From Patescibacteria group bacterium (GTDB lineage Bacteria > Patescibacteriota > Patescibacteriia > CAIXNZ01), in contig JBAZJU010000001.1 in the NCBI GenBank assembly GCA_041651155.1, forward strand, positions 261,596 through 325,595: DNA of 64,000 bases, written 5' to 3'. Shown piece by piece: positions 11,406 to 17,706 of this stretch (positions are counted from its first letter, which is position 1; every line of letters begins with the position of its first letter). Below the pieces are notes generated by a model that saw nothing but the letters and a program-made list of their open reading frames with translations, was not told the origin of the DNA and did no database searches. A program made the translations under genes and the position numbers.

Positions 11406-12167
11406 ATGATAAATTACCAGGAATTAAAAAAAATAGGCCTATCAGACAAAGAGGCTAAATTATATTTGACTTCTTTGCAGCGCGGTCCGGAAACAGCGCC
11501 GACTTTGGCAAAGTTGTCAGACATTGTTAGACCGACTGCTTACGTGATTATTGATAGTTTAACGAAAAAGGGCTTAATGAGTTCTACTGCCAAAGGAAAG
11601 AAAACTTTTTATACTGCTGAGTCGCCAGAGCATCTTTTGAGCCTGATACGTCTGCAAAAAAGAGAAATTGAAGAAAAAGAAAGGGAAATTTTTAAATTGA
11701 TTCCGCAATTAGAGTTGCTTGCCAATATAAAAGGGGAAAAGCCTAAAGTCAGGGTTTTTGAAGGTAAAGAAGGCTTAAAAGCAGTCATAGAGAGTATTTT
11801 AAAAAGCAAGACCAAAATTATTTACAGTTTCATGCCAGCTGATCGGCTTTTTGATTTATTCCCAGCGGATGAACATAAAGAATTTATGGCCAGTCCCCGA
11901 GTCAAGAAAGGAATTAAAGGGAAGCTTTTATATACCAGTAAAAATGGACATATTTATAAAGCTAAAGATCCGCAAAATTTACGCGAGGCAACTTTTATTG
12001 ACCAGAAAGATTTTCCTTTTGATTGCGGGATTGATATCTATGACGATAATATTGCTTTTTACACGTATAAAGGAGCAATAATGGGGGTTGTAATTGAGAA
12101 TACAGATATTGCCAATACGATGAAAACAGTTTTTAATATGATTTGGGAAAAATATAATAGAAAATAA
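11406..12167 (+). CDS. TrmB-family transcriptional regulator
   Basis: N-terminal wHTH resembling TrmB (LSDKEAKLYLTSLQRGPETAPTLAK), 253 aa. Confidence 0.55.
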   Translation: MINYQELKKIGLSDKEAKLYLTSLQRGPETAPTLAKLSDIVRPTAYVIIDSLTKKGLMSSTAKGKKTFYTAESPEHLLSLIRLQKREIEEKEREIFKLIPQLELLANIKGEKPKVRVFEGKEGLKAVIESILKSKTKIIYSFMPADRLFDLFPADEHKEFMASPRVKKGIKGKLLYTSKNGHIYKAKDPQNLREATFIDQKDFPFDCGIDIYDDNIAFYTYKGAIMGVVIENTDIANTMKTVFNMIWEKYNRK

Positions 12168-12187: not shown

Positions 12188-12218
12188 GAAAATGTCAATA
12201 GCTATTGACATTTTTTTT
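12188..12218 (+). terminator. 13-bp perfect inverted repeat + T8 (terminator, possibly also an operator)
   Basis: aaaatgtcaatag/ctattgacatttt then tttttttt. Confidence 0.5.
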
Positions 12219-12783
12219 AATTTATGGTAGAATACCAGATTGATTGTCGGAGGGGAGATACTTTTGGGCAAGGAGGTGAAATAATCATGGGAGCAGGATG
12301 AAATATCTCAAAGATGCCTAAAGGGCTGAGAACATGAACAGATTTAGTTAGTATAAAAAGTAAACCACTAGCTGACAAAATTAAAGGATTGTCCTTTGGC
12401 AAAATCAAGAAGCAAAACATGACAATAAGGAGAAGCGTACTTGAAAAAAAGAAGCAGACTCTGTCGTCTGGGCCGTTATAATTAAAGAAAAAATGGTTTG
12501 GCCTAGGCTGACTTATATGCGATGATTCAGTCCATATCCCATCAGGCTTATCAGAAGCAAGCCAGTAGATAAAGAATTAATGGGGTGGATAGAGAATCAA
12601 GTACTCAACGAGCAAAATGGCTTTCGGAAATTTCGCAAATGCGAAAAATCCGGAAGCCATTTTTTCTTTTCTAAAATTTTTTTTCAAATGTACAATCTAG
12701 TATAAATTGACTTTAATTTAATACAAATAACCTTTATTTTATGAGCCTTTTTAGCATTATTTTGAAATTTGGTATAAGGGGGC

Positions 12784-12818
12784 TTGACAAATTTTTTTAC
12801 TTATGCTAAGATGCTATA
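12784..12818 (+). promoter_or_regulatory. strong sigma70-like promoter at left edge of the Rsr island
   Basis: TTGACA aatttttttacttatgc TAAGAT gc TATATT. Confidence 0.55.
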
Positions 12819-12819
12819 T

Positions 12820-13828
12820 TAACTAAAAAAAGTTTCTGGAAAAAAAGTTAGCAGAGGGAATAGTACAAATAAGATTTTGCAGCATTGATCCCGAAAGCCC
12901 CAAGAATTGGGGATCAATCTGGTCTTATTTGCACTATCCTCTTTGTTAAAACAAAGAGTCCCATGCTTATCGCCGCTCTTTAAAAAAATAATTTCACTGC
13001 GTGCTTTTGCAGCTTTATAGAATTAAGGCTCCAGAATGGACGCAGTGAAAAATGCTGGTAGGAAAATTTTTCCTGCGGCTTGCCAAAATGAACTGGGAGT
13101 ATTTCCTACTCCCGAATCCTGGGTCACCTTGTTAATTATTGTCCTTAGATTATTGATCAGAGCAAATAAGTCCTGTAAAAAGGATAAATCAAAGATAAGC
13201 CAGGAATCTCAGTCGCTTGAAAAAGCAGCTGATTGGGAGAGGGAAATCTCCGACGACTTATCTGCGATTTCAGCAATGATTATTTGCTTAAGGGATAAAA
13301 CCCGTGATCAATCGGAGGACTGCATAACGAGGTTACTTCAAAAACAATGAAGCTGGGCTTTCTCAGTTCATTTGGCAAGCACTAAACGCAAGTAAAAACA
13401 GTTAGTCGTTATAGCAAGAGATGACTAAACTGTTTTTACTTGGAGGAACAGCAATACTCTGGATTTCTTGCAGCTCTTTATCCCGCAAGGGAAACCTTAA
13501 TTTCTTTTTGCCTTCACTCTTTTGCTAAGAGCGATCATGCTCGCGGTGATTTCCCGGCAAAAGACTTGGGCTGCGAATTGAGGTTACTCCAATAAAAGAT
13601 TAATAACAGAGATCTGTTGCCAGAGTGTTGGCTGTTCCAAATTTTAAAATATCAAAGGGCTTTTACGCCCTTTTCTTAAACTCTATAATTTTTGTTGCTA
13701 TGTAATCCTTCGCGCTACATAGCAGAATAAAGGATTGTAGGATTTAAAAAACACATTAACTAAGCTAGTGTGCAAGGTACATTACAATTTTCAACCAACT
13801 AATAACTTAGGACAAAAGGAGGTCCCAG
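12820..13828 (+). ncRNA. about 1-kb ORF-poor structured transcript upstream of the Ro60/Rsr gene; candidate Y-RNA-like RNA(s), boundaries unknown
   Basis: no credible long ORF; many stable hairpins (12884-12918, 12996-13050, 13094-13112, 13395-13443 16-bp stem, 13665-13682, 13700-13726); immediately 5' of a TROVE-domain gene. Confidence 0.3.
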
Positions 13829-15508
13829 ATGAAGAATATTGCGAGATTGATTAAGTCAGTAAAGGCTGCCAACCAGGGCTCTCAAACTCATCCCAATAGG
13901 GAAGGGGCTCCGAGTTTCTATCGGAGTATAAAAGAGCAGGTTGTGCAGATCCTCACCACTGGGACCTTAAGCAACACCTTTTATGCCTCGACCGAGCAAC
14001 TCGGCAGGGAAGCCATAGAGGTTTTGTTGCAGGCAAGGCAAGAGTGTCCGGAATTTTTGGCTAAGGCCGTTGCCTATGCCAGGAATGAGGGACTACTCAA
14101 GTCAATGCCGGTCCTGGGGCTAGCGATGCTCTCCGGAGAGAGAAAGGCCAAGCAATACTTCCAGGCCACTTTTAATCAGGTAGTAAAAACGCCGGATGAT
14201 TTGAGGGCATTTGTACTGCTCTGCAAATCAGGCGTTATACCTGGGCGAAAGGGCTTGGGCGGGATGACTCGTGATGCGGTGGCGAACTGGCTGGGAAATC
14301 TTTCAGAGTATCACACGATGAAATACGGTTCGGCCGTTTCTCGTGAGATTACACTCAGAGATATACTTCGCTTAGCTCACCCCAAACCGCAAAACGAAGC
14401 TCTCTCCGAGCGTTTCGGCTACTTGGTTTCAGGGAAGCGGGCTTTGAGTGCAAACTCTGGTCTTAATCCCCAGATTCGCATGCTGGAAACTTTGAAGCGG
14501 GCGACTACTGAAGAAGAGACGCTGAACCTCGTGCGCGAGGGTAAGCTGCCTTTTGAAGTAGTCATTCCTGCGGTTAAAGCGACCACGCCTGCAATCTGGT
14601 CAGCTCTGCTTCATAACGCGCCCTACTTTAACTTGCTGAGAAATTTGGTGACGTTCACGCGCCATCAGGTTTTTTTAAGCGAGGCAGAGGTAGAGTACGC
14701 TGTGCAGCGGCTGACTGACGCCAGAGCTGTCGAGCGTTCGAAAGTGTTGCCGTTCCGGTACTTCCAGGCCTGGCAGCAGTATGTGGCGATGGAAAATCCA
14801 GACAGCCTGATCGCAGATGCACTGCGACAGGCTTTGGAGCTTTCCTTTGTTAACATGCCATCGCTGGGTTCTTGCCAGATTGCGATCGGTACTGATACTA
14901 GTGGTTCAATGGGCAGTCAGGTCTCTGAAAAGAGCTCGACTCGTTTCATTGATATCGCAGGTATCTTTACCGGTGCATTACTGCGCAAGGCAGAAGGCCG
15001 GGTTATTCCTTTACCTTTCGACACCGAGATCCACATCAACCATGGTCTTTCTGGCCGTGATGAAATACTCACGACTACTGATAAGATCAGCCATTGGTGT
15101 GGCGGTGGCACTGCGGTTGGCGCGCCGATACAGTTCCTACTTGATCGACGGATTTCCGTTGATGTCTTTATTGGCATCACTGATCAGGAGGAATGGGCGT
15201 ATGGCGGCGGATATCCCTGTCGTGGGAGTTTCCTTGACTTGTGGCACGAGTACCGCAAGCAGGTTAACCCTCATTGCAAGGCATATCTGGTAACCATTGC
15301 CCCGTATCGAGACGCGGTTGCACCGCAGGGCGAGGAAGGTATTCGTTTCACCTACGGATGGAACGACAGCGTGCTCGGTTACATTGCCAATGATCTGGCA
15401 GGCGGCGCAAGCCAAATCCAGGCCATTGAGCAAATGGAGCTTGAGTTCGTTGGGGATAACGGTCCGCTTTCCGAGACCGCTAGCGAGGACGCGCAGATTG
15501 AAGATTAA
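13829..15508 (+). CDS. rsr: Ro60-like TROVE-domain protein with C-terminal vWA/MIDAS domain (Rsr ortholog)
   Basis: 559 aa; RBS aaaggagg; helical N-terminal domain, then IAIGTDTSGSMGS (DxSxS MIDAS) as in Ro60/Rsr; G/C-rich codon usage. Confidence 0.7.
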   Translation: MKNIARLIKSVKAANQGSQTHPNREGAPSFYRSIKEQVVQILTTGTLSNTFYASTEQLGREAIEVLLQARQECPEFLAKAVAYARNEGLLKSMPVLGLAMLSGERKAKQYFQATFNQVVKTPDDLRAFVLLCKSGVIPGRKGLGGMTRDAVANWLGNLSEYHTMKYGSAVSREITLRDILRLAHPKPQNEALSERFGYLVSGKRALSANSGLNPQIRMLETLKRATTEEETLNLVREGKLPFEVVIPAVKATTPAIWSALLHNAPYFNLLRNLVTFTRHQVFLSEAEVEYAVQRLTDARAVERSKVLPFRYFQAWQQYVAMENPDSLIADALRQALELSFVNMPSLGSCQIAIGTDTSGSMGSQVSEKSSTRFIDIAGIFTGALLRKAEGRVIPLPFDTEIHINHGLSGRDEILTTTDKISHWCGGGTAVGAPIQFLLDRRISVDVFIGITDQEEWAYGGGYPCRGSFLDLWHEYRKQVNPHCKAYLVTIAPYRDAVAPQGEEGIRFTYGWNDSVLGYIANDLAGGASQIQAIEQMELEFVGDNGPLSETASEDAQIED

Positions 15509-15871
15509 CCATGGGGTTAGTCTTCACTTCCAAATGGAAGTCCCACATCAGACTGCGCGAAGCTCTGTTTCCGCATTGCGGAGATCTTTACCTTTACTGC
15601 GGTTAATGTGATGCCACACGTTTTCTGCGGTTCTGTGTGATGACCAGAGAGCACCCTGGGTCTAAAAGACCGAAACCAATTGTTTAGACTTTAATGTCTG
15701 ACAATTGTCCCAAATGGGATCAGGGATAAATTAAGTGGGAGAACGTAGATTCTTCCAGGGTGACAAAAAGTCACCCTGTTCATTCAAAGCTTGTAAATAC
15801 TTGTAGGTTTTGAAGGTAACATCAGATTTGCTGGTGTTAAAAAGTAAATTGAAAAAATAGGGAGGTGCTAA

Positions 15872-16921
15872 ATGATTTATACAGATACAGCTTTACTAAA
15901 TTTAAATCCTGCAGATTTAGCGCAAGCAGATGACGCGGAAATCAATGCGCTTAGAAAACTTCTGCACCAAATGTGGGATGAGAGCAAGGGAGATGATAAA
16001 AAATACCATCGAGCTATTTGGGAACTCTGGGGTAGCTTATCTTATCCTTTCACGTCCACGGAAGTTGCTGAATATCAGGCAGAGAGAGAACTCACGCCTC
16101 GCCAGGCTTGGATTAAAAACTATAACGAGCGATTTAAGCCGGATAGTGATATTCTTTGCCTTAGCGATGCCGAGTTCGATGAAGTCTTTCGGCTTCTGCT
16201 TCGGCCTTATTCGGAAATTTATCAGCGTCTTGATGAACTAACGTCAAAACGCTGGAATCCTTTCCAGGCTGAATATTTGTATGAACTTGAACATATGACT
16301 TTCCCGATCTGTAAGCGGGATAGCTGGCTGGTCAGCAAAATCATGCAATATGATTTGGATGACTATAAAACCAGGATACTTCCTCACCTCGGTCTTAAGA
16401 CCGAATGGCAGGAAGAGTCTGATGCCGAATATGAGGAATATCTTCTTGAGCTTTCTAATCGTAGCCTCTGGAGAAAATCTATTGACAAACTGAGATCTTG
16501 GAAATGGAGAATTAAATCTCTGTTTCAGAAACGTGAAAGTCCCTGGGAGCAACCTGGCATTCAGCAAGCCCTAACAGGCAGCATCTATGAGCAATCTCCG
16601 AGTGCATATGTACAGCTTAGATTCAGACGGGGTTATCACGAATTACCTGATCTAGTTTTTGTTCCCTTGGTACCTCTGGAATATTTCCGTCTTTCGTTCA
16701 ATGGGCATGCTCTCTGCGGGTATGCTTACGGTCCTTGTTATTCTGAATATGGCATGCTTGACATGCTCGACAATTTTACCGGCAATGACGATGATTGGCG
16801 ATTCATGGACGGTTTTAGTTACGAATTCAATCCGGTCAATTCATTTCCATGGAAGGATGAATTACCGGGTAATCCTGACCGCCTTTCGAATGATCATCGC
16901 ATTGAATGCCGTTATTATTGA
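15872..16921 (+). CDS. hypothetical protein (Trp/Tyr-rich), co-oriented with rsr
   Basis: 349 aa ORF with RBS gggagg; followed by terminator hairpin. Confidence 0.5.
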   Translation: MIYTDTALLNLNPADLAQADDAEINALRKLLHQMWDESKGDDKKYHRAIWELWGSLSYPFTSTEVAEYQAERELTPRQAWIKNYNERFKPDSDILCLSDAEFDEVFRLLLRPYSEIYQRLDELTSKRWNPFQAEYLYELEHMTFPICKRDSWLVSKIMQYDLDDYKTRILPHLGLKTEWQEESDAEYEEYLLELSNRSLWRKSIDKLRSWKWRIKSLFQKRESPWEQPGIQQALTGSIYEQSPSAYVQLRFRRGYHELPDLVFVPLVPLEYFRLSFNGHALCGYAYGPCYSEYGMLDMLDNFTGNDDDWRFMDGFSYEFNPVNSFPWKDELPGNPDRLSNDHRIECRYY

Positions 16922-16930
16922 TTATTTGCA

Positions 16931-16976
16931 CCCCACCAGATCAGCCCTCGGGCCTCTGGTGGGGTTATTCATTTTC
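16931..16976 (+). terminator. intrinsic terminator
   Basis: ccccaccaga...tctggtgggg 10-bp stem then T-rich. Confidence 0.5.
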
Positions 16977-17074
16977 AAACCTCCTTGGGTGCTGTGAAAA
17001 AATGGAACAAAGAAGTGGTTTCCCAAACAGCAACCCTTAACAATTGGCTAGAATGCCAATGAGGAGGTAAAATT

Positions 17075-17659
17075 ATGTGGAGTGATAATGGTTTAGCGAG
17101 TGAGCATCTTCAACCAAATTTTCCTAAAAATGTTTGGAGAGCTCTCTACCGGCATCTATGTGGGATTGATCCTAATTGGTGTACAGCTCATTTCATATTC
17201 GATGAAAAATGTGAGATCATTAGGTCATTCTTTAATGGTCCAAAATTTGGAGATTTTGGATCTTTAGTAAAACTCCCTAAACTTCTAAGGGGACAATTTT
17301 TTGAACGGTTGAAAACATACATGTTAGCACATCCATATAAATCTAACATTGTCGGCGATACCCGTTATGGTATCAAATTCTATAACCCTAGCTACAAAAT
17401 TGAACTCATCAATGGCCGAACGGAAATTGTCTTTGAACATTGTGTTGAGGGAATTGTTCAAAACTATAACCCTCAAAAACATACTTTTGAGATTCAAAAT
17501 CTGCGCGACATGTTTAGCGGGAAATCTGAAATGAGGGTTATTGATGGGAAGACATGGAATCAGTCCTGGAAAATGACAATGCAGGAACTTAAGCAACAGC
17601 TTAAGGATGATGGCCCTAATTTTCAGGCAACTGAAATATGCTATTTACCCCCAAAATAA
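17075..17659 (+). CDS. hypothetical protein
   Basis: 194 aa ORF with RBS gaggagg. Confidence 0.5.
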   Translation: MWSDNGLASEHLQPNFPKNVWRALYRHLCGIDPNWCTAHFIFDEKCEIIRSFFNGPKFGDFGSLVKLPKLLRGQFFERLKTYMLAHPYKSNIVGDTRYGIKFYNPSYKIELINGRTEIVFEHCVEGIVQNYNPQKHTFEIQNLRDMFSGKSEMRVIDGKTWNQSWKMTMQELKQQLKDDGPNFQATEICYLPPK

Positions 17660-17673
17660 TCAATTAGCCGCAA

Positions 17674-17706
17674 AGCCCTGAACTCAACGAAGTTCAGGGC
17701 TCTTTT
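17674..17706 (+). terminator. intrinsic terminator (right edge of island)
   Basis: agccctgaact/agttcagggct 11-bp stem + tctttt. Confidence 0.55.

What the first reader, a model, noticed from the sequence alone, without database searches (positions are those of the whole stretch)
12784..17706. G+C-richer island with a bacterial Ro60/Rsr ortholog, a long structured leader and two unknown proteins: candidate Ro60 / Y-RNA-like RNP module
ORF 13829-15508 carries a C-terminal vWA/MIDAS signature (IAIGTDTSGSMGS) after a long helical domain, as in Ro60/Rsr TROVE proteins. In Deinococcus, Salmonella and Mycobacterium, rsr lies next to the non-coding Y RNAs it binds. Here a strong promoter (12784-12818) drives about 1 kb without a convincing ORF but full of stable hairpins, which then runs straight into rsr. 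Another 360 nt of hairpin-rich non-coding sequence follows rsr (15509-15871). Two unknown proteins (349 and 194 aa) complete the co-oriented block. The block is visibly more G+C-rich than the flanks (trmB-like gene, gyrB) and is bounded by terminators, which suggests horizontal acquisition. I know of no described Ro60/Y-RNA system in this kind of low-GC, reduced genome, and the partner proteins match nothing I recognise.
Basis: partly seen in the sequence, partly recalled or inferred. Interest (0 to 1): 0.8.

Follow-up and report, generated by a model that had tools for sequence, protein, structure and literature searches.

The report
Ro60 gene with new partner RNAs
An ultra-small (CPR/Patescibacteria) bacterium carries a genuine Ro60/Rsr RNA-quality-control gene flanked by two previously undescribed families of conserved, structured non-coding RNAs and a TrmBL2-like regulator, which extends the Ro60/Y-RNA type of module to this superphylum with RNAs unlike the tRNA-like Y RNAs known from other bacteria.

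Summary
ORF 13829-15508 is a full-length but divergent Ro60/Rsr protein (TROVE + Ro60-vWA, intact MIDAS). The roughly 1-kb "leader" is non-coding. It holds two copies of a new stem-bulge RNA ("Type B", 13126-13342 and 13495-13593) plus covarying hairpins. The spacer after rsr holds a new ~200-nt multi-helix RNA ("Type A", 15539-15744) whose invariant loop UAAAAGACCGAA resembles the Ro60-contact motif of Y RNAs. Both families covary strongly. Covariance models hit only the rsr strand, within about 1.2 kb of rsr, in about 20 CPR loci. An RNA-only metagenome scan found 7 genuine Type A copies, all directly 3' of rsr. Neither RNA matches Rfam Y_RNA/YrlA, and neither is tRNA-like, whereas non-CPR rsr loci do carry long tRNA-like elements.

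Three points need correcting. The two unknown proteins are lineage-specific passengers. The conserved protein partner is the upstream TrmBL2-like regulator (22 of 24 loci). The G+C excess is a family-wide trait of CPR rsr genes, not evidence of recent acquisition.

RNA expression and binding to Rsr are inferred, not shown. Verdict: a new variant of a known kind, of moderately high interest.

The parts
11406..12167 (+). TrmBL2-like transcription regulator (253 aa): winged helix, coiled coil and a PLD-like C-terminal domain. It is the only protein-coding gene that recurs next to rsr.
   Evidence: Pfam TrmB PF01978, E 2.5e-12. AF2 model pLDDT 87.5. Top Foldseek hits are TrmBL2 5box/5bpd (E 1.6e-13) and Zucchini/PLD6 for the C-terminal domain. 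Present next to rsr in 22 of 24 CPR loci, mostly upstream and co-oriented.
12189..12214 (.). Perfect 13+13 palindrome AAAATGTCAATAG/CTATTGACATTTT overlapping the -35 box of promoter 12205-12233. Candidate operator of the regulator (TGTCA-N8-TGACA).
   Evidence: Inverted repeat I9, 100% complementary. Promoter matches 11 of 12 positions. The block is conserved in L002, L003 and L020. TGTCA-N7-8-TGACA occurs just after the TrmB-like gene in the window, L003, L007 and L020.
12784..12812 (+). Sigma-70-type promoter of the RNA leader (TTGACA-17-TG-TAAGAT).
   Evidence: The roughly 35-nt block is invariant in the window, L002, L003 and L004.
12852..12945 (+). H1, a long imperfect hairpin at the 5' end of the leader transcript.
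   Evidence: Fold z = -5.3. RNAalifold finds 22 stem pairs plus a 4-bp apical helix, many kept through changes on both sides between the window/L002 and L003/L004. Coordinates.
12992..13050 (+). H2, a conserved hairpin.
   Evidence: Inverted repeat I7. RNAalifold pairs at columns 184-243, with compensatory changes.
13078..13380 (+). Type B RNA unit 1 (B1). The core is 13126-13342: P1 13126-13134/13325-13333, P2 13141-13145/13316-13320, a roughly 165-nt branched apical domain, and the 3' tail UUACUUCAA. It sits on a roughly 21-bp extended stem, 13078-13098/13361-13380.
   Evidence: Helices were predicted independently by RNAalifold and have compensatory changes. P1/P2 covariation is seen across the family. 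The extended stem covaries: GCUUGCCAAA/UUUGGCAAGC becomes GCCUGCCAC/GUGGCAGGC. The covariance model gives only a partial hit, 13250-13342 at E 0.25, because of the large insert.
13389..13442 (+). H3, a perfect 15-bp hairpin between the two Type B units. It may be a processing site.
   Evidence: Inverted repeat I5, 100% complementary. Conserved in L002 but not in L003/L004.
13495..13593 (+). Type B RNA unit 2 (B2): CCUUAAUU-UCUUUUU-GCCU...GGGC-UGCG-AAUUGAGG-UUACUCCAAU.
   Evidence: Covariance model R1: 64.3 bits, E 6e-12. Family covariation.
13654..13689 (+). Terminator-like hairpin GGGCUUUUACGCCC followed by UUUUCUU (13654-13680), overlapping a promoter-like site TTTACG-16-TATAAT (13662-13689) ahead of rsr.
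   Evidence: and the terminator part of the alignment. Present in L002, absent from L003/L004.
13829..15508 (+). rsr: a Ro60/Rsr orthologue (TROVE ring + vWA with MIDAS D356-x-S358-x-S360...T428...D452). Preceded by the RBS AAAGGAGG.
   Evidence: Pfam. PDB matches: Ro60 1yvp 2.6e-19, RO60 9nen, Rsr 2nvo 2.3e-17, phage TROVE 9l5y. phrog_850 at 4e-35. MIDAS residues are invariant in 31 homologues. Third-codon-position excess of substitutions, 25/18/90.
15539..15744 (+). Type A RNA, a roughly 200-nt multi-helix RNA. P1 15542-15546/15735-15739; P2 15562-15566/15648-15652 with a variable insert; P3 15654-15658/15721-15725; P4 hairpin with the invariant loop UAAAAGACCGAA (15663-15674); a variable hairpin; P6 15707-15710/15717-15720; the junction GAUAAAUUAA (15725-15734). 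A possible pseudoknot joins 15547-15550 to AGAC at 15667-15670.
   Evidence: Covariance model R2: 147 bits. Covariation score 0.362 against 0.168 for shuffles, with 0 of 500 shuffles reaching it. RNAalifold recovers P1 and the GUCU:AGAC pairing. All 7 genuine hits from the RNA-only metagenome scan lie 3' of rsr.
15756..15785 (+). Terminator-like hairpin CAGGGUGAC-AAAAA-GUCACCCUG followed by UUCAUUC, closing the rsr/Type A unit.
   Evidence: Covarying stem at columns 261-283 (GGGUGAC/GUCACCC becomes GGAUGGU/GCCAUCC).
15872..16921 (+). p349, a real but lineage-specific orphan gene. It is a passenger, not a conserved member of the module.
   Evidence: Substitutions by codon position 23/17/80. Only itself and one 38%-identical relative among 5.8 billion proteins. 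Found only in L002 among the 38 rsr loci. No family hit.
17075..17659 (+). p194, a member of a very small family of unknown function. It is not a conserved partner.
   Evidence: 18 representatives among 1.84 billion. Only a weak match in L003. No family hit.
17674..17701 (+). Intrinsic terminator that closes the co-oriented block.
   Evidence: 11-bp stem with 6 G-C pairs, followed by a T-rich tail.

Best explanation
This is a CPR-type Ro60 (Rsr) ribonucleoprotein locus. It consists of a TrmBL2-like regulator gene, a promoter driving a roughly 0.85-kb non-coding transcript that carries two stem-bulge 'Type B' RNAs plus accessory hairpins, the rsr gene, and immediately 3' of rsr a roughly 200-nt multi-helix 'Type A' RNA.

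Most likely mechanism (inferred by analogy with Deinococcus Rsr/Yrn1/PNPase and Salmonella rsr-yrlBA): the RNAs are cut out of the leader and the rsr 3' region and bind the Rsr ring as Y-RNA-like cofactors. Type B would bind through its GYCC/GGRC helix next to an asymmetric U-rich loop. Type A would bind through the invariant GACCGAA element, possibly paired with GUCU. The bound RNAs would gate access to the ring's central cavity, or tether Rsr (by way of its vWA/MIDAS domain or the RNA's variable domain) to an exoribonuclease for decay or repair of misfolded RNA. The TrmBL2-like protein would control transcription from the TGTCA-N8-TGACA site.

Shown: the protein's family, the non-coding nature of the leader, RNA structure conservation and covariation, the strict linkage to rsr in position and strand, and the synteny with the regulator.

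Inferred: transcription and processing into discrete RNAs, binding to Rsr, the regulatory role of the TrmBL2-like protein, and the downstream effector.
For: Protein:
- TROVE and Ro60-vWA are both above Pfam cut-offs.
- Full-length matches to solved Ro60/Rsr structures.
- MIDAS residues are invariant.

Leader is non-coding:
- Flat codon-position substitutions, frame-breaking indels and stops in L002.

Type B RNA:
- On fixed-register strands, 96.8% of cells pair, 8 of 12 pairs change on both sides, and covariation is 0.548 against 0.216 for shuffles (0 of 500) and at most 0.168 when slid.
- On 29 model-aligned sequences, at least 12 of which were not in the training set, covariation is 0.422 against 0.188.
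- All 35 covariance-model hits in 458 kb (both strands searched) are on the rsr strand near rsr in CPR loci.
- Units lie upstream of rsr in some loci and downstream in others.

Type A RNA:
- Covariation 0.362 against 0.168 for shuffles (0 of 500) on a MAFFT alignment not fitted to the structure.
- RNAalifold finds P1 independently.
- All 19 covariance-model hits of 87-161 bits lie directly 3' of rsr.
- An RNA-only metagenome scan gave 7 of 7 genuine copies next to rsr.
- The invariant GACCGAA resembles the vertebrate GGUCCGA and the YrlA motif GNCGAA(N0-1)G, which PMC4201824 implicates in Rsr binding.

Other:
- The whole leader in four relatives gives 117 predicted pairs, 32 of them compensatory.
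- The regulator is present in 22 of 24 CPR loci and is the only recurrent neighbour. Its fold matches TrmBL2. An operator-like palindrome sits at the promoter.
- Known bacterial Y RNAs are likewise encoded on the rsr strand within 4 kb (PMC4201824).
Against: - There is no expression, end-mapping or binding data, so the RNAs could act only in cis.
- Neither RNA matches Rfam Y_RNA or YrlA, and neither has tRNA-like T/D arms.
- GACCGAA is not an exact GNCGAA(N0-1)G. It lies in an internal hairpin loop, not near the 5' end.
- The GUCU:AGAC pairing is invariant and so cannot be tested by covariation. The window's own copy reads AUCA at that position, which breaks two of the four pairs.
- An exact GUCCGA occurs in only 3 of about 26 Type B units, barely more than chance.
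- Selection of the Type B strands was partly guided by complementarity, and alignment A10 is fitted to the model.
- Type A is missing from one CPR sub-group (L011, L013, L015-L018, L029-L031).
- No exoribonuclease or RtcB-type gene is conserved nearby.
Confidence: 0.65

Rival explanations
1. The conserved structures are cis-acting UTR elements of the rsr mRNA rather than trans-acting RNP partners. Type B and the hairpins would be a 5' leader or attenuator. Type A would be a 3'-UTR stabiliser or a site for autoregulation by Rsr.
For: Type A starts about 30 nt after the rsr stop codon with no promoter of its own, and it is followed by a terminator-like hairpin. In L003/L004 the leader runs into rsr with no intervening terminator. 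There is no evidence that the RNAs are processed.
Against: Type B units lie downstream of rsr and Type A in L006, L013, L017 and L019, and upstream in the other loci. A 5' leader would not show that freedom of position. Units occur in one or two (sometimes more) copies per locus. In the window a terminator-like hairpin and a promoter-like site separate the leader from rsr. Known Y RNAs are also co-transcribed with rsr and then processed (Salmonella rsr-yrlBA; PMC4201824).
Confidence: 0.2
2. The RNAs are autonomous functional RNAs (for example a ribozyme, a ligand sensor, or a mimic or sponge of another cellular RNA). Their link to rsr would reflect a shared pathway (RNA repair or ribosome rescue), not direct binding as Y RNAs.
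For: Type A has about 30 invariant positions in loops and junctions, plus a possible pseudoknot. That is more than a simple protein-binding stem needs. In some CPR loci, tmRNA or tRNA-like RNAs and a hammerhead-like motif sit in the same neighbourhood. Nothing matches any Y RNA model.
Against: Every genuine copy found is adjacent to rsr, including the copies found by the RNA-only search. The GACCGAA and GUCC/GGAC elements resemble Ro60 sites. No other conserved gene is available as a partner.
Confidence: 0.1
3. The G+C-rich block is a recently acquired horizontal island. The RNAs and orphan genes would be cargo of a mobile element.
For: rsr has G+C of 52% and GC3 of 56%, against about 33% GC3 in the neighbouring genes. 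Third-position divergence between the window and L002 is lower for rsr (90 substitutions in 560 codons) and p349 (80 in 350) than for BipA (239 in 605). Orphan genes preceded by repeated intergenic elements follow rsr.
Against: rsr is 5-17 G+C points above its flanks in all CPR loci examined, whatever the genome's G+C, and about 0 in Chloroflexi loci. So the excess is a property of the gene family, not of this insertion. The order BipA-TrmB-RNAs-rsr-p349 is the same in L002. TrmB-rsr synteny spans many CPR lineages. No integrase, transposase, tRNA target or direct repeats were seen.
Confidence: 0.12
4. The roughly 1-kb leader is a degraded protein-coding gene.
For: A 104-codon ORF (13036-13350) exists and was called as a gene on the source contig.
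Against: Substitutions fall 10/10/11 by codon position, with indels of 2, 1 and 8 nt and multiple stops in the 94%-Rsr relative L002. No family hit. The region holds 32 compensatory base pairs.
Confidence: 0.01

Closest known systems
Salmonella / Mycobacterium rsr-YrlA (and YrlB) loci: bacterial Y RNAs (Chen et al. 2014, PMC4201824)
   Same: A Ro60 orthologue with non-coding RNAs encoded on the same strand within 4 kb, partly 3' of rsr and co-transcribed. There is a short purine-rich CGAA-type motif proposed to contact Rsr, and a dedicated transcription regulator next to the operon.
   Different: YrlA is defined by near-invariant tRNA-like T and D arms, and these RNAs have none. Type A is about twice as long, with six helices and a possible pseudoknot. 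The regulator is a TrmBL2-like winged-helix protein, not the sigma-54 activator RtcR. No rtcBA genes are present.
Deinococcus radiodurans Rsr-Yrn1-PNPase (RYPER) and metazoan Ro60-Y RNA / nematode sbRNA
   Same: Type B has the Y-RNA layout: the 5' and 3' ends pair into a basal stem, followed by an asymmetric internal loop, a short conserved helix (GUCC/GGAC, compared with GGUC/GACU), a variable distal domain and a single-stranded 3' tail.
   Different: There is no Rfam Y_RNA match. The conserved sequences differ (CCUU...GAGG-UUACUUC). The exact GGUCCGA occurs in only one unit. Units sit in tandem within a long leader instead of being individual genes.
Phage-encoded Ro60 homologues (mycobacteriophages; Thermus phage phiLo, PMC12135203)
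   Same: A divergent TROVE + vWA protein of similar length. The window protein hits the phage family phrog_850 (E 4e-35) and PDB entries 9l5y/9kop.
   Different: The context here is chromosomal, between bipA/trmB-like genes and gyrB, with no phage genes. The phage loci carry YrlA-type RNAs.
TrmBL2 (Thermococcales chromatin protein / global repressor)
   Same: The fold matches over the full length of the upstream regulator: winged helix, coiled coil and a PLD-like C-terminal domain, with no sugar-binding subdomain.
   Different: It is bacterial (CPR), about 24% identical, and specifically syntenic with rsr. Its DNA target and any ligand are unknown.

Membership tests
Ro60 / Rsr (TROVE) proteins | TROVE (HEAT-repeat ring) domain | tested here: met
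   PF05731 at 57.1 bits, cut-off 23. Alignment to residues 15-471 of Xenopus Ro60 1yvp.
Ro60 / Rsr (TROVE) proteins | C-terminal Ro60-type vWA domain with a MIDAS motif (DxSxS...T...D) | tested here: met
   PF25045 at 37.1 bits, cut-off 27.7. D356, S358, S360, T428 and D452 are invariant in 31 homologues.
Ro60 / Rsr (TROVE) proteins | Scores as an NCBIfam Rsr equivalog (NF041674) | tested here: not met
   83.7 bits against a cut-off of 900. The protein is a family member but belongs to a divergent CPR subfamily.
Ro60 / Rsr (TROVE) proteins | Binds Y RNA and misfolded RNA | not testable with these tools
   Needs biochemistry.
YrlA-type bacterial Y RNA | Encoded within 4 kb of the Ro60 orthologue on the same strand | tested here: met
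   Type A begins about 30 nt after the rsr stop codon. Type B units lie 236-703 nt upstream of the rsr start. All family members are on the rsr strand.
YrlA-type bacterial Y RNA | Near-invariant tRNA-like T and D stem-loops (tRNA mimicry) | tested here: not met
   No tRNA, YrlA or tmRNA hit in the window from Rfam or ARAGORN, even in permissive scans. As a positive control, non-CPR rsr loci give long tRNA-like hits upstream of rsr.
YrlA-type bacterial Y RNA | GNCGAA(N0-1)G motif near the 5' end | tested here: inconclusive
   Type A has an invariant GACCGAA. It matches the vertebrate GGUCCGA at 5 of 7 positions, but it is not an exact GNCGAA and it lies in an internal hairpin loop.
Metazoan / Deinococcus-type Y RNA (Rfam RF00019) and sbRNA | The 5' and 3' ends form a basal stem with an internal loop or bulge and a conserved upper helix | tested here: met
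   Type B helices P1 (8 bp) and P2 (4 bp) are separated by a loop of 6-9 nt on one side and 4-5 nt on the other. Covariation is shown.
Metazoan / Deinococcus-type Y RNA (Rfam RF00019) and sbRNA | Conserved GGUCCGA / UUGACU Ro-binding helix; match to the family covariance model | tested here: not met
   No Rfam hit at E up to 10. The helix is GYCC/GGRC. The exact GGUCCGA is seen in 1 unit and GUCCGA in 3 of about 26 units.
TrmB / TrmBL2 regulators | N-terminal TrmB winged helix, coiled coil and PLD-like C-terminal domain | tested here: met
   PF01978 at 46.9 bits, cut-off 25.6. Foldseek hit to TrmBL2 5box at E 1.6e-13 over 267 alignment columns, and to Zucchini 4ggj for the C-terminal domain.

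The most novel reading that the evidence does not exclude
Type A is not simply a protein-tethering Y RNA. It would be a new class of large structured RNA with its own biochemical activity (catalytic, ligand-sensing, or a mimic of an rRNA or tRNA element). Together with Rsr, the stem-bulge RNAs and, in some lineages, an adjacent hammerhead-processed mini-tmRNA, it would form a CPR-specific RNA-surveillance or ribosome-rescue system that substitutes for pathways lost in these reduced genomes.
Probability: 0.12. Interest if true: 0.85.

Novelty: new variant of a known kind. Interest (0 to 1): 0.62.

Why it matters
Ro60 RNPs are conserved from bacteria to humans. Their RNA partners have been characterised in only a few bacteria, and there they are tRNA mimics. 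This analysis shows that a whole superphylum of ultra-small, genome-reduced bacteria keeps rsr together with two different, well-defined RNA families and a dedicated regulator.

This gives three things. First, two new RNA families, each with a covariance model, that can be annotated across CPR genomes. Second, a natural experiment on which features of a Y RNA are really required for Ro60 function: a stem-bulge and a CGAA-type motif are retained, while tRNA mimicry is not. Third, a compact three-component system (regulator, RNAs, Rsr) that could be reconstituted in vitro from organisms that cannot be cultured. That so reduced a genome keeps the module argues that Ro60-based RNA quality control matters to these cells.

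Tried and rejected
- Rfam scans of the window and 37 related loci found no Y_RNA or YrlA match.
- ARAGORN found no tRNA-like element in the window.
I judged these to be chance matches and did not use them; loci L040-L159 were not examined.
- In the metagenome scan, 11 of the 18 pattern hits were AT-rich chance matches that lack the GUCUGACYGCG block.
- MAFFT alignment A6 of the Type B cores shifted the CCUU anchor by one column and was discarded in favour of fixed-register strands.
- A per-unit shuffle test of the 8-nt P1 complement was not significant on its own. Only the family-wide covariation is significant.
- The relaxed motif hits in Chloroflexi loci (GGGGUUMCUUC) coincide with tRNA-like hits and are not found by model R1, so I do not claim that Type B occurs outside CPR.
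- p349 and p194 as conserved partners: rejected. The one distant p349 relative lies on a truncated contig and was uninformative.
- orf104 as a gene: rejected.
- The region 12240-12650 (first half of the TrmB-rsr gap) is not conserved even in L002, so I did not pursue it as a structured RNA.
- The GUCU:AGAC pseudoknot cannot be evaluated because both strands are invariant.

Full report
**Source and observation**

The window comes from a 294-kb Patescibacteria (CPR) contig (ENA ERZ27247363). NCBI names the same proteins as from a 'Patescibacteria group bacterium'.
- ORF 13829-15508 with the IAIGTDTSGSMGS signature.
- A TTGACA-17-TG-TAAGAT promoter at 12784-12812.
- About 1 kb with no credible ORF.
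- A 363-nt spacer after the ORF that folds far better than shuffled sequence (z = -6.6). The start of the leader does too (z = -5.3).
- Two ORFs with no family match.
- A strong terminator at 17674-17701.
- A G+C bump. The bump is mainly rsr itself (52%), p349 (43%) and the post-rsr RNA (46%). p194 and the leader are near the background of 37%.

**The protein**

The ORF passes Pfam's thresholds for both TROVE and the Ro60-specific vWA domain. It aligns over nearly its whole length to Xenopus Ro60, human RO60, Deinococcus Rsr and two phage TROVE structures, at E 1e-17 to 1e-19. All MIDAS residues are invariant among 31 homologues. It scores far below NCBIfam's Rsr equivalog cut-off, so it belongs to a divergent subfamily. 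More than 300 homologues exist, many from CPR metagenomes and already labelled 'TROVE domain-containing protein'. The protein's presence in CPR is therefore visible in databases, although I found no paper that discusses it.

**The leader is not a dead gene**

I compared the window with L002, a relative whose Rsr is 94% identical. Real genes show the expected third-position excess of substitutions: rsr 25/18/90, p349 23/17/80, BipA 53/24/239. The only sizeable leader ORF (orf104) shows 10/10/11, has indels of 2, 3, 1 and 8 nt, and is full of stop codons in L002.

**Comparative set**

A protein-profile scan of one genome per GTDB species returned 38 rsr loci: about 24 from CPR lineages as labelled in the records (Parcubacteria/Paceibacterota, Falkowbacteria, Uhrbacteria, Doudnabacteria, Zambryskibacteria, 'Saccharibacteria'), and about 14 from Chloroflexi and others.

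**Type A RNA (after rsr)**

- The spacer directly after the rsr stop codon is better conserved than one would expect for an intergenic spacer, and it shows compensatory changes.
- nhmmer finds it immediately after rsr, on the same strand, in 14 genome loci.
- Nineteen distinct sequences share three invariant single-stranded blocks: GUCUGACYGCG, UAAAAGACCGAA and GAYAAAUNAA.
- On that MAFFT alignment, RNAalifold independently recovers the closing helix P1 with heavy covariation (CG x10 / UA x9 at one pair; UA/AU/CG at another). It also predicts a pairing of GUCU with AGAC inside the invariant loop.
- My 27-pair structure gives 80% paired cells and a covariation score of 0.362, against 0.168 for shuffles (0 of 500 reach it) and at most 0.198 for slid registers.
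- A covariance model built from the alignment finds 19 strong hits (87-161 bits) in 458 kb searched on both strands. Every one lies directly 3' of rsr on the rsr strand. The window copy scores 147 bits at 15539-15744.
- As a test that does not depend on the protein, I scanned 241 million metagenome records with TAAAAGACCGAA-N35-65-TGAYAAATNAA. Of 18 matches, 7 also carry the GUCUGACYGCG block, and all 7 lie directly downstream of an rsr gene. The other 11 are AT-rich chance matches.
- The invariant GACCGAA resembles the Ro60-contacted GGUCCGA of vertebrate Y RNAs and the GNCGAA(N0-1)G of YrlA (PMC4201824). If GUCU pairs with AGAC, the resulting helix plus CGAA mimics that site with one flipped base pair. 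This is suggestive only, because both blocks are invariant. The window's own copy reads AUCA in place of GUCU.

**Type B RNA (in the leader)**

- The 11-mer GAGGUUACUYC occurs only on the rsr strand and only near rsr, in 13 loci. The window has two copies, at 13330 and 13581.
- Each marks the 3' end of a unit with a fixed architecture:
  - P1: CCUU+N4 pairs with N4+GAGG (8 bp).
  - An asymmetric loop: 6-9 U-rich nt on the 5' side, UGCN on the 3' side.
  - P2: GYCC pairs with GGRC.
  - A variable apical domain of 0-170 nt.
  - A 3' tail UUACUUCRA.
- On fixed-register strands from 18 units, 96.8% of cells pair and 8 of 12 pairs change on both sides. Covariation is 0.548, against 0.216 for shuffles (0 of 500) and at most 0.168 for slid registers.
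- A covariance model built from 17 short units finds 35 hits at E up to 1 in 458 kb. All are on the rsr strand within about 1.2 kb of rsr, in CPR loci only. At least 12 were not used in training.
- The 29-sequence model alignment keeps the signal: 0.422 against 0.188.
- Units lie upstream of rsr in most loci but downstream of rsr and Type A in L006, L013, L017 and L019. That argues against a simple 5'-leader role.
- In the window, B2 is 13495-13593 (64 bits). B1 is 13126-13342 and sits on a roughly 21-bp extended stem (13078-13098/13361-13380) that itself covaries in L003/L004.
- RNAalifold on the four close relatives predicts 117 pairs across 12819-13400, 32 of them compensatory. These include hairpins H1 and H2 and all the B1 helices.

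**Relation to known Y RNAs**

No Rfam Y_RNA, YrlA, sbRNA or tRNA model matches the window, even when the RNAs are scanned alone with the most permissive filters. ARAGORN finds nothing. As a positive control, the non-CPR rsr loci give tRNA-model hits on the rsr strand just upstream of rsr. Many of these are 116-149 nt long and score 42-50 bits, which is what YrlA-type tRNA mimics should look like. So CPR rsr genes carry different RNAs in the place where other bacteria carry tRNA-like Y RNAs. Type B resembles metazoan/Deinococcus Y RNAs and sbRNAs in layout, and Type A resembles them only in the CGAA-type motif. Neither can be filed as a member of a described family.

**Protein partners**

- Clustering all flanking ORFs from 24 CPR loci shows one recurrent neighbour only: the TrmB-family gene, found in 22 of 24 loci and mostly upstream and co-oriented, with an ORF-poor gap of 1.2-2.8 kb before rsr.
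- Its AF2 model (pLDDT 87.5) matches TrmBL2 over the full length (E 1.6e-13). The C-terminal domain matches the PLD-like Zucchini fold.
- A perfect palindrome containing TGTCA-N8-TGACA overlaps the -35 box of the first promoter after this gene. It recurs in L003, L007 and L020.
- p349 is a real gene but an orphan: among the related rsr loci it is found only in L002 (91% identical), and a protein search returned only itself and one 38%-identical relative.
- p194 belongs to an 18-representative family.
- Neither p349 nor p194 travels with rsr.

**G+C and horizontal transfer**

rsr is 5-17 G+C points richer than its own distant flanks in every CPR locus, over genome G+C from 33% to 63%. The difference is about zero in Chloroflexi loci. 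The TrmB-like gene next to it is not enriched. The gene order BipA-TrmB-RNAs-rsr-p349 is shared with L002. So the island is a property of the gene family, through compositional or synonymous-site constraint or through old transfers. It is not evidence of a recent insertion here. The lower third-position divergence of rsr and p349 compared with BipA is compatible either with constraint or with recombination, and I leave it open.

**Mechanism**

Shown:
- A Ro60-family protein.
- Two RNA families with conserved, covarying structure.
- Strict linkage to rsr in position and strand.
- A conserved regulator with an operator-like site.

Inferred by analogy with Deinococcus Rsr-Yrn1-PNPase and Salmonella rsr-yrlBA:
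- The RNAs are released from the leader and from the rsr 3' region.
- They bind the Rsr ring, Type B through the GYCC/GGRC helix and Type A through GACCGAA.
- They gate its cavity or tether it to a nuclease.
- The TrmBL2-like protein sets expression.

The main rival is that these are cis-acting UTR elements. Only transcript mapping and binding assays can settle this.

**Verdict**

It needs correcting on the partner proteins, the tRNA-like module and horizontal acquisition. It is a new variant of a known kind of system. It comes with two RNA families that appear to be undescribed (absent from Rfam 15 and from the searchable literature).

Noticed in passing
L020 7057-7249 (Doudnabacteria MAG JAWKSI010000004), about 0.5 kb downstream of rsr: A near-threshold type III hammerhead match (42.9 bits, cut-off 48.5, E 7.8e-8) lies 8 nt upstream of a 131-nt 'tmRNA' match. 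That match consists only of the tRNA-like domain (acceptor stem, T-arm, ACCU end) with about 33 nt of interior. It may be a ribozyme-processed mini-tmRNA or tRNA mimic next to rsr. A similar short hit is at L007 9471-9611.
   Followed up: partly
L011 8046-8472; L034 3583-3927: Full-size tmRNA genes lie on the rsr strand within 1.4-2.9 kb downstream of rsr in two further CPR loci. Counting the short hits in L007 and L020, four independent loci link rsr with tmRNA or tmRNA-like RNAs, which is more than chance would give for a single-copy gene.
   Followed up: no
window 12205-12670: This may be a separate transcription unit between the regulator and the RNA leader. It has a near-consensus promoter (11 of 12), then a very strong RBS followed by a 4-codon ORF (AAGGAGGTGAAATAATC-ATG GGA GCA GGA TGA, MGAG*), then about 330 nt, then a 24-bp terminator hairpin at 12614-12663. 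Comparable mini-ORFs with a strong Shine-Dalgarno site (MDGI, MGGL, MGW, MNGG, MHW) sit at the same place in L002-L004, L007 and L020. The rest of the unit is not conserved even in L002.
   Followed up: partly
L013, L015, L017, L018: first ~300 nt after rsr: The CPR sub-group that lacks Type A shares a different conserved element after rsr (…CGGUUUCACA…CCGRUUGGCAACAGAA…GCCUCCAUUUUUGAGA…). It may be a third rsr-linked RNA family or a divergent form of Type A.
   Followed up: no
window 13829-15508 and all CPR rsr loci: In CPR, rsr is systematically 5-17 G+C points richer than its genomic surroundings (GC3 56% against 33% here). Its third-position divergence is also lower than that of the neighbouring bipA. 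This hints at constraint on synonymous sites or on mRNA structure. The high G+C also produces long spurious antisense ORFs that cluster across loci.
   Followed up: partly
window 15547-15550: The window's Type A copy reads AUCA where the 18 other sequences read GUCU (GUCC in one). That breaks 2 of the 4 pairs of the putative GUCU:AGAC pseudoknot, with no compensating change.
   Followed up: partly
window 13687-13771, 15774-15845, 16919-17074; L002 and L003 downstream of rsr; L178 45-135 and 545-630: Related intergenic segments of 70-150 nt recur upstream of rsr and of each small orphan gene downstream of it. In the p349-relative locus they share UUUUCAAACAGCAACCAAUUUAAC before the RBS. This may be a shared promoter or 5'-UTR cassette for a set of orphan genes.
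   Followed up: no
L024-L027, L036, L039 (non-CPR loci), within 1 kb upstream of rsr (one further hit, L025 2282-2411, lies ~1.3 kb upstream): Abnormally long tRNA-model hits (116-149 nt, 42-50 bits) on the rsr strand, sometimes two or three in tandem, next to normal tRNAs. They are presumably YrlA-type tRNA-mimic Y RNAs that Rfam reports under the tRNA family.
   Followed up: no
window 1-64000: There is no tRNA gene and no Rfam family at gathering threshold anywhere in the 64 kb.
   Followed up: no
L013, L015, L017: 3-4.5 kb downstream of rsr, opposite strand; L019: ~4 kb upstream (1-969), opposite strand: An RNase Y-like gene (about 508 aa, by sequence resemblance only; not scanned against any family library) lies 3-4.5 kb from rsr in four CPR loci. 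This could be clade-level synteny or a candidate nuclease partner.
   Followed up: no
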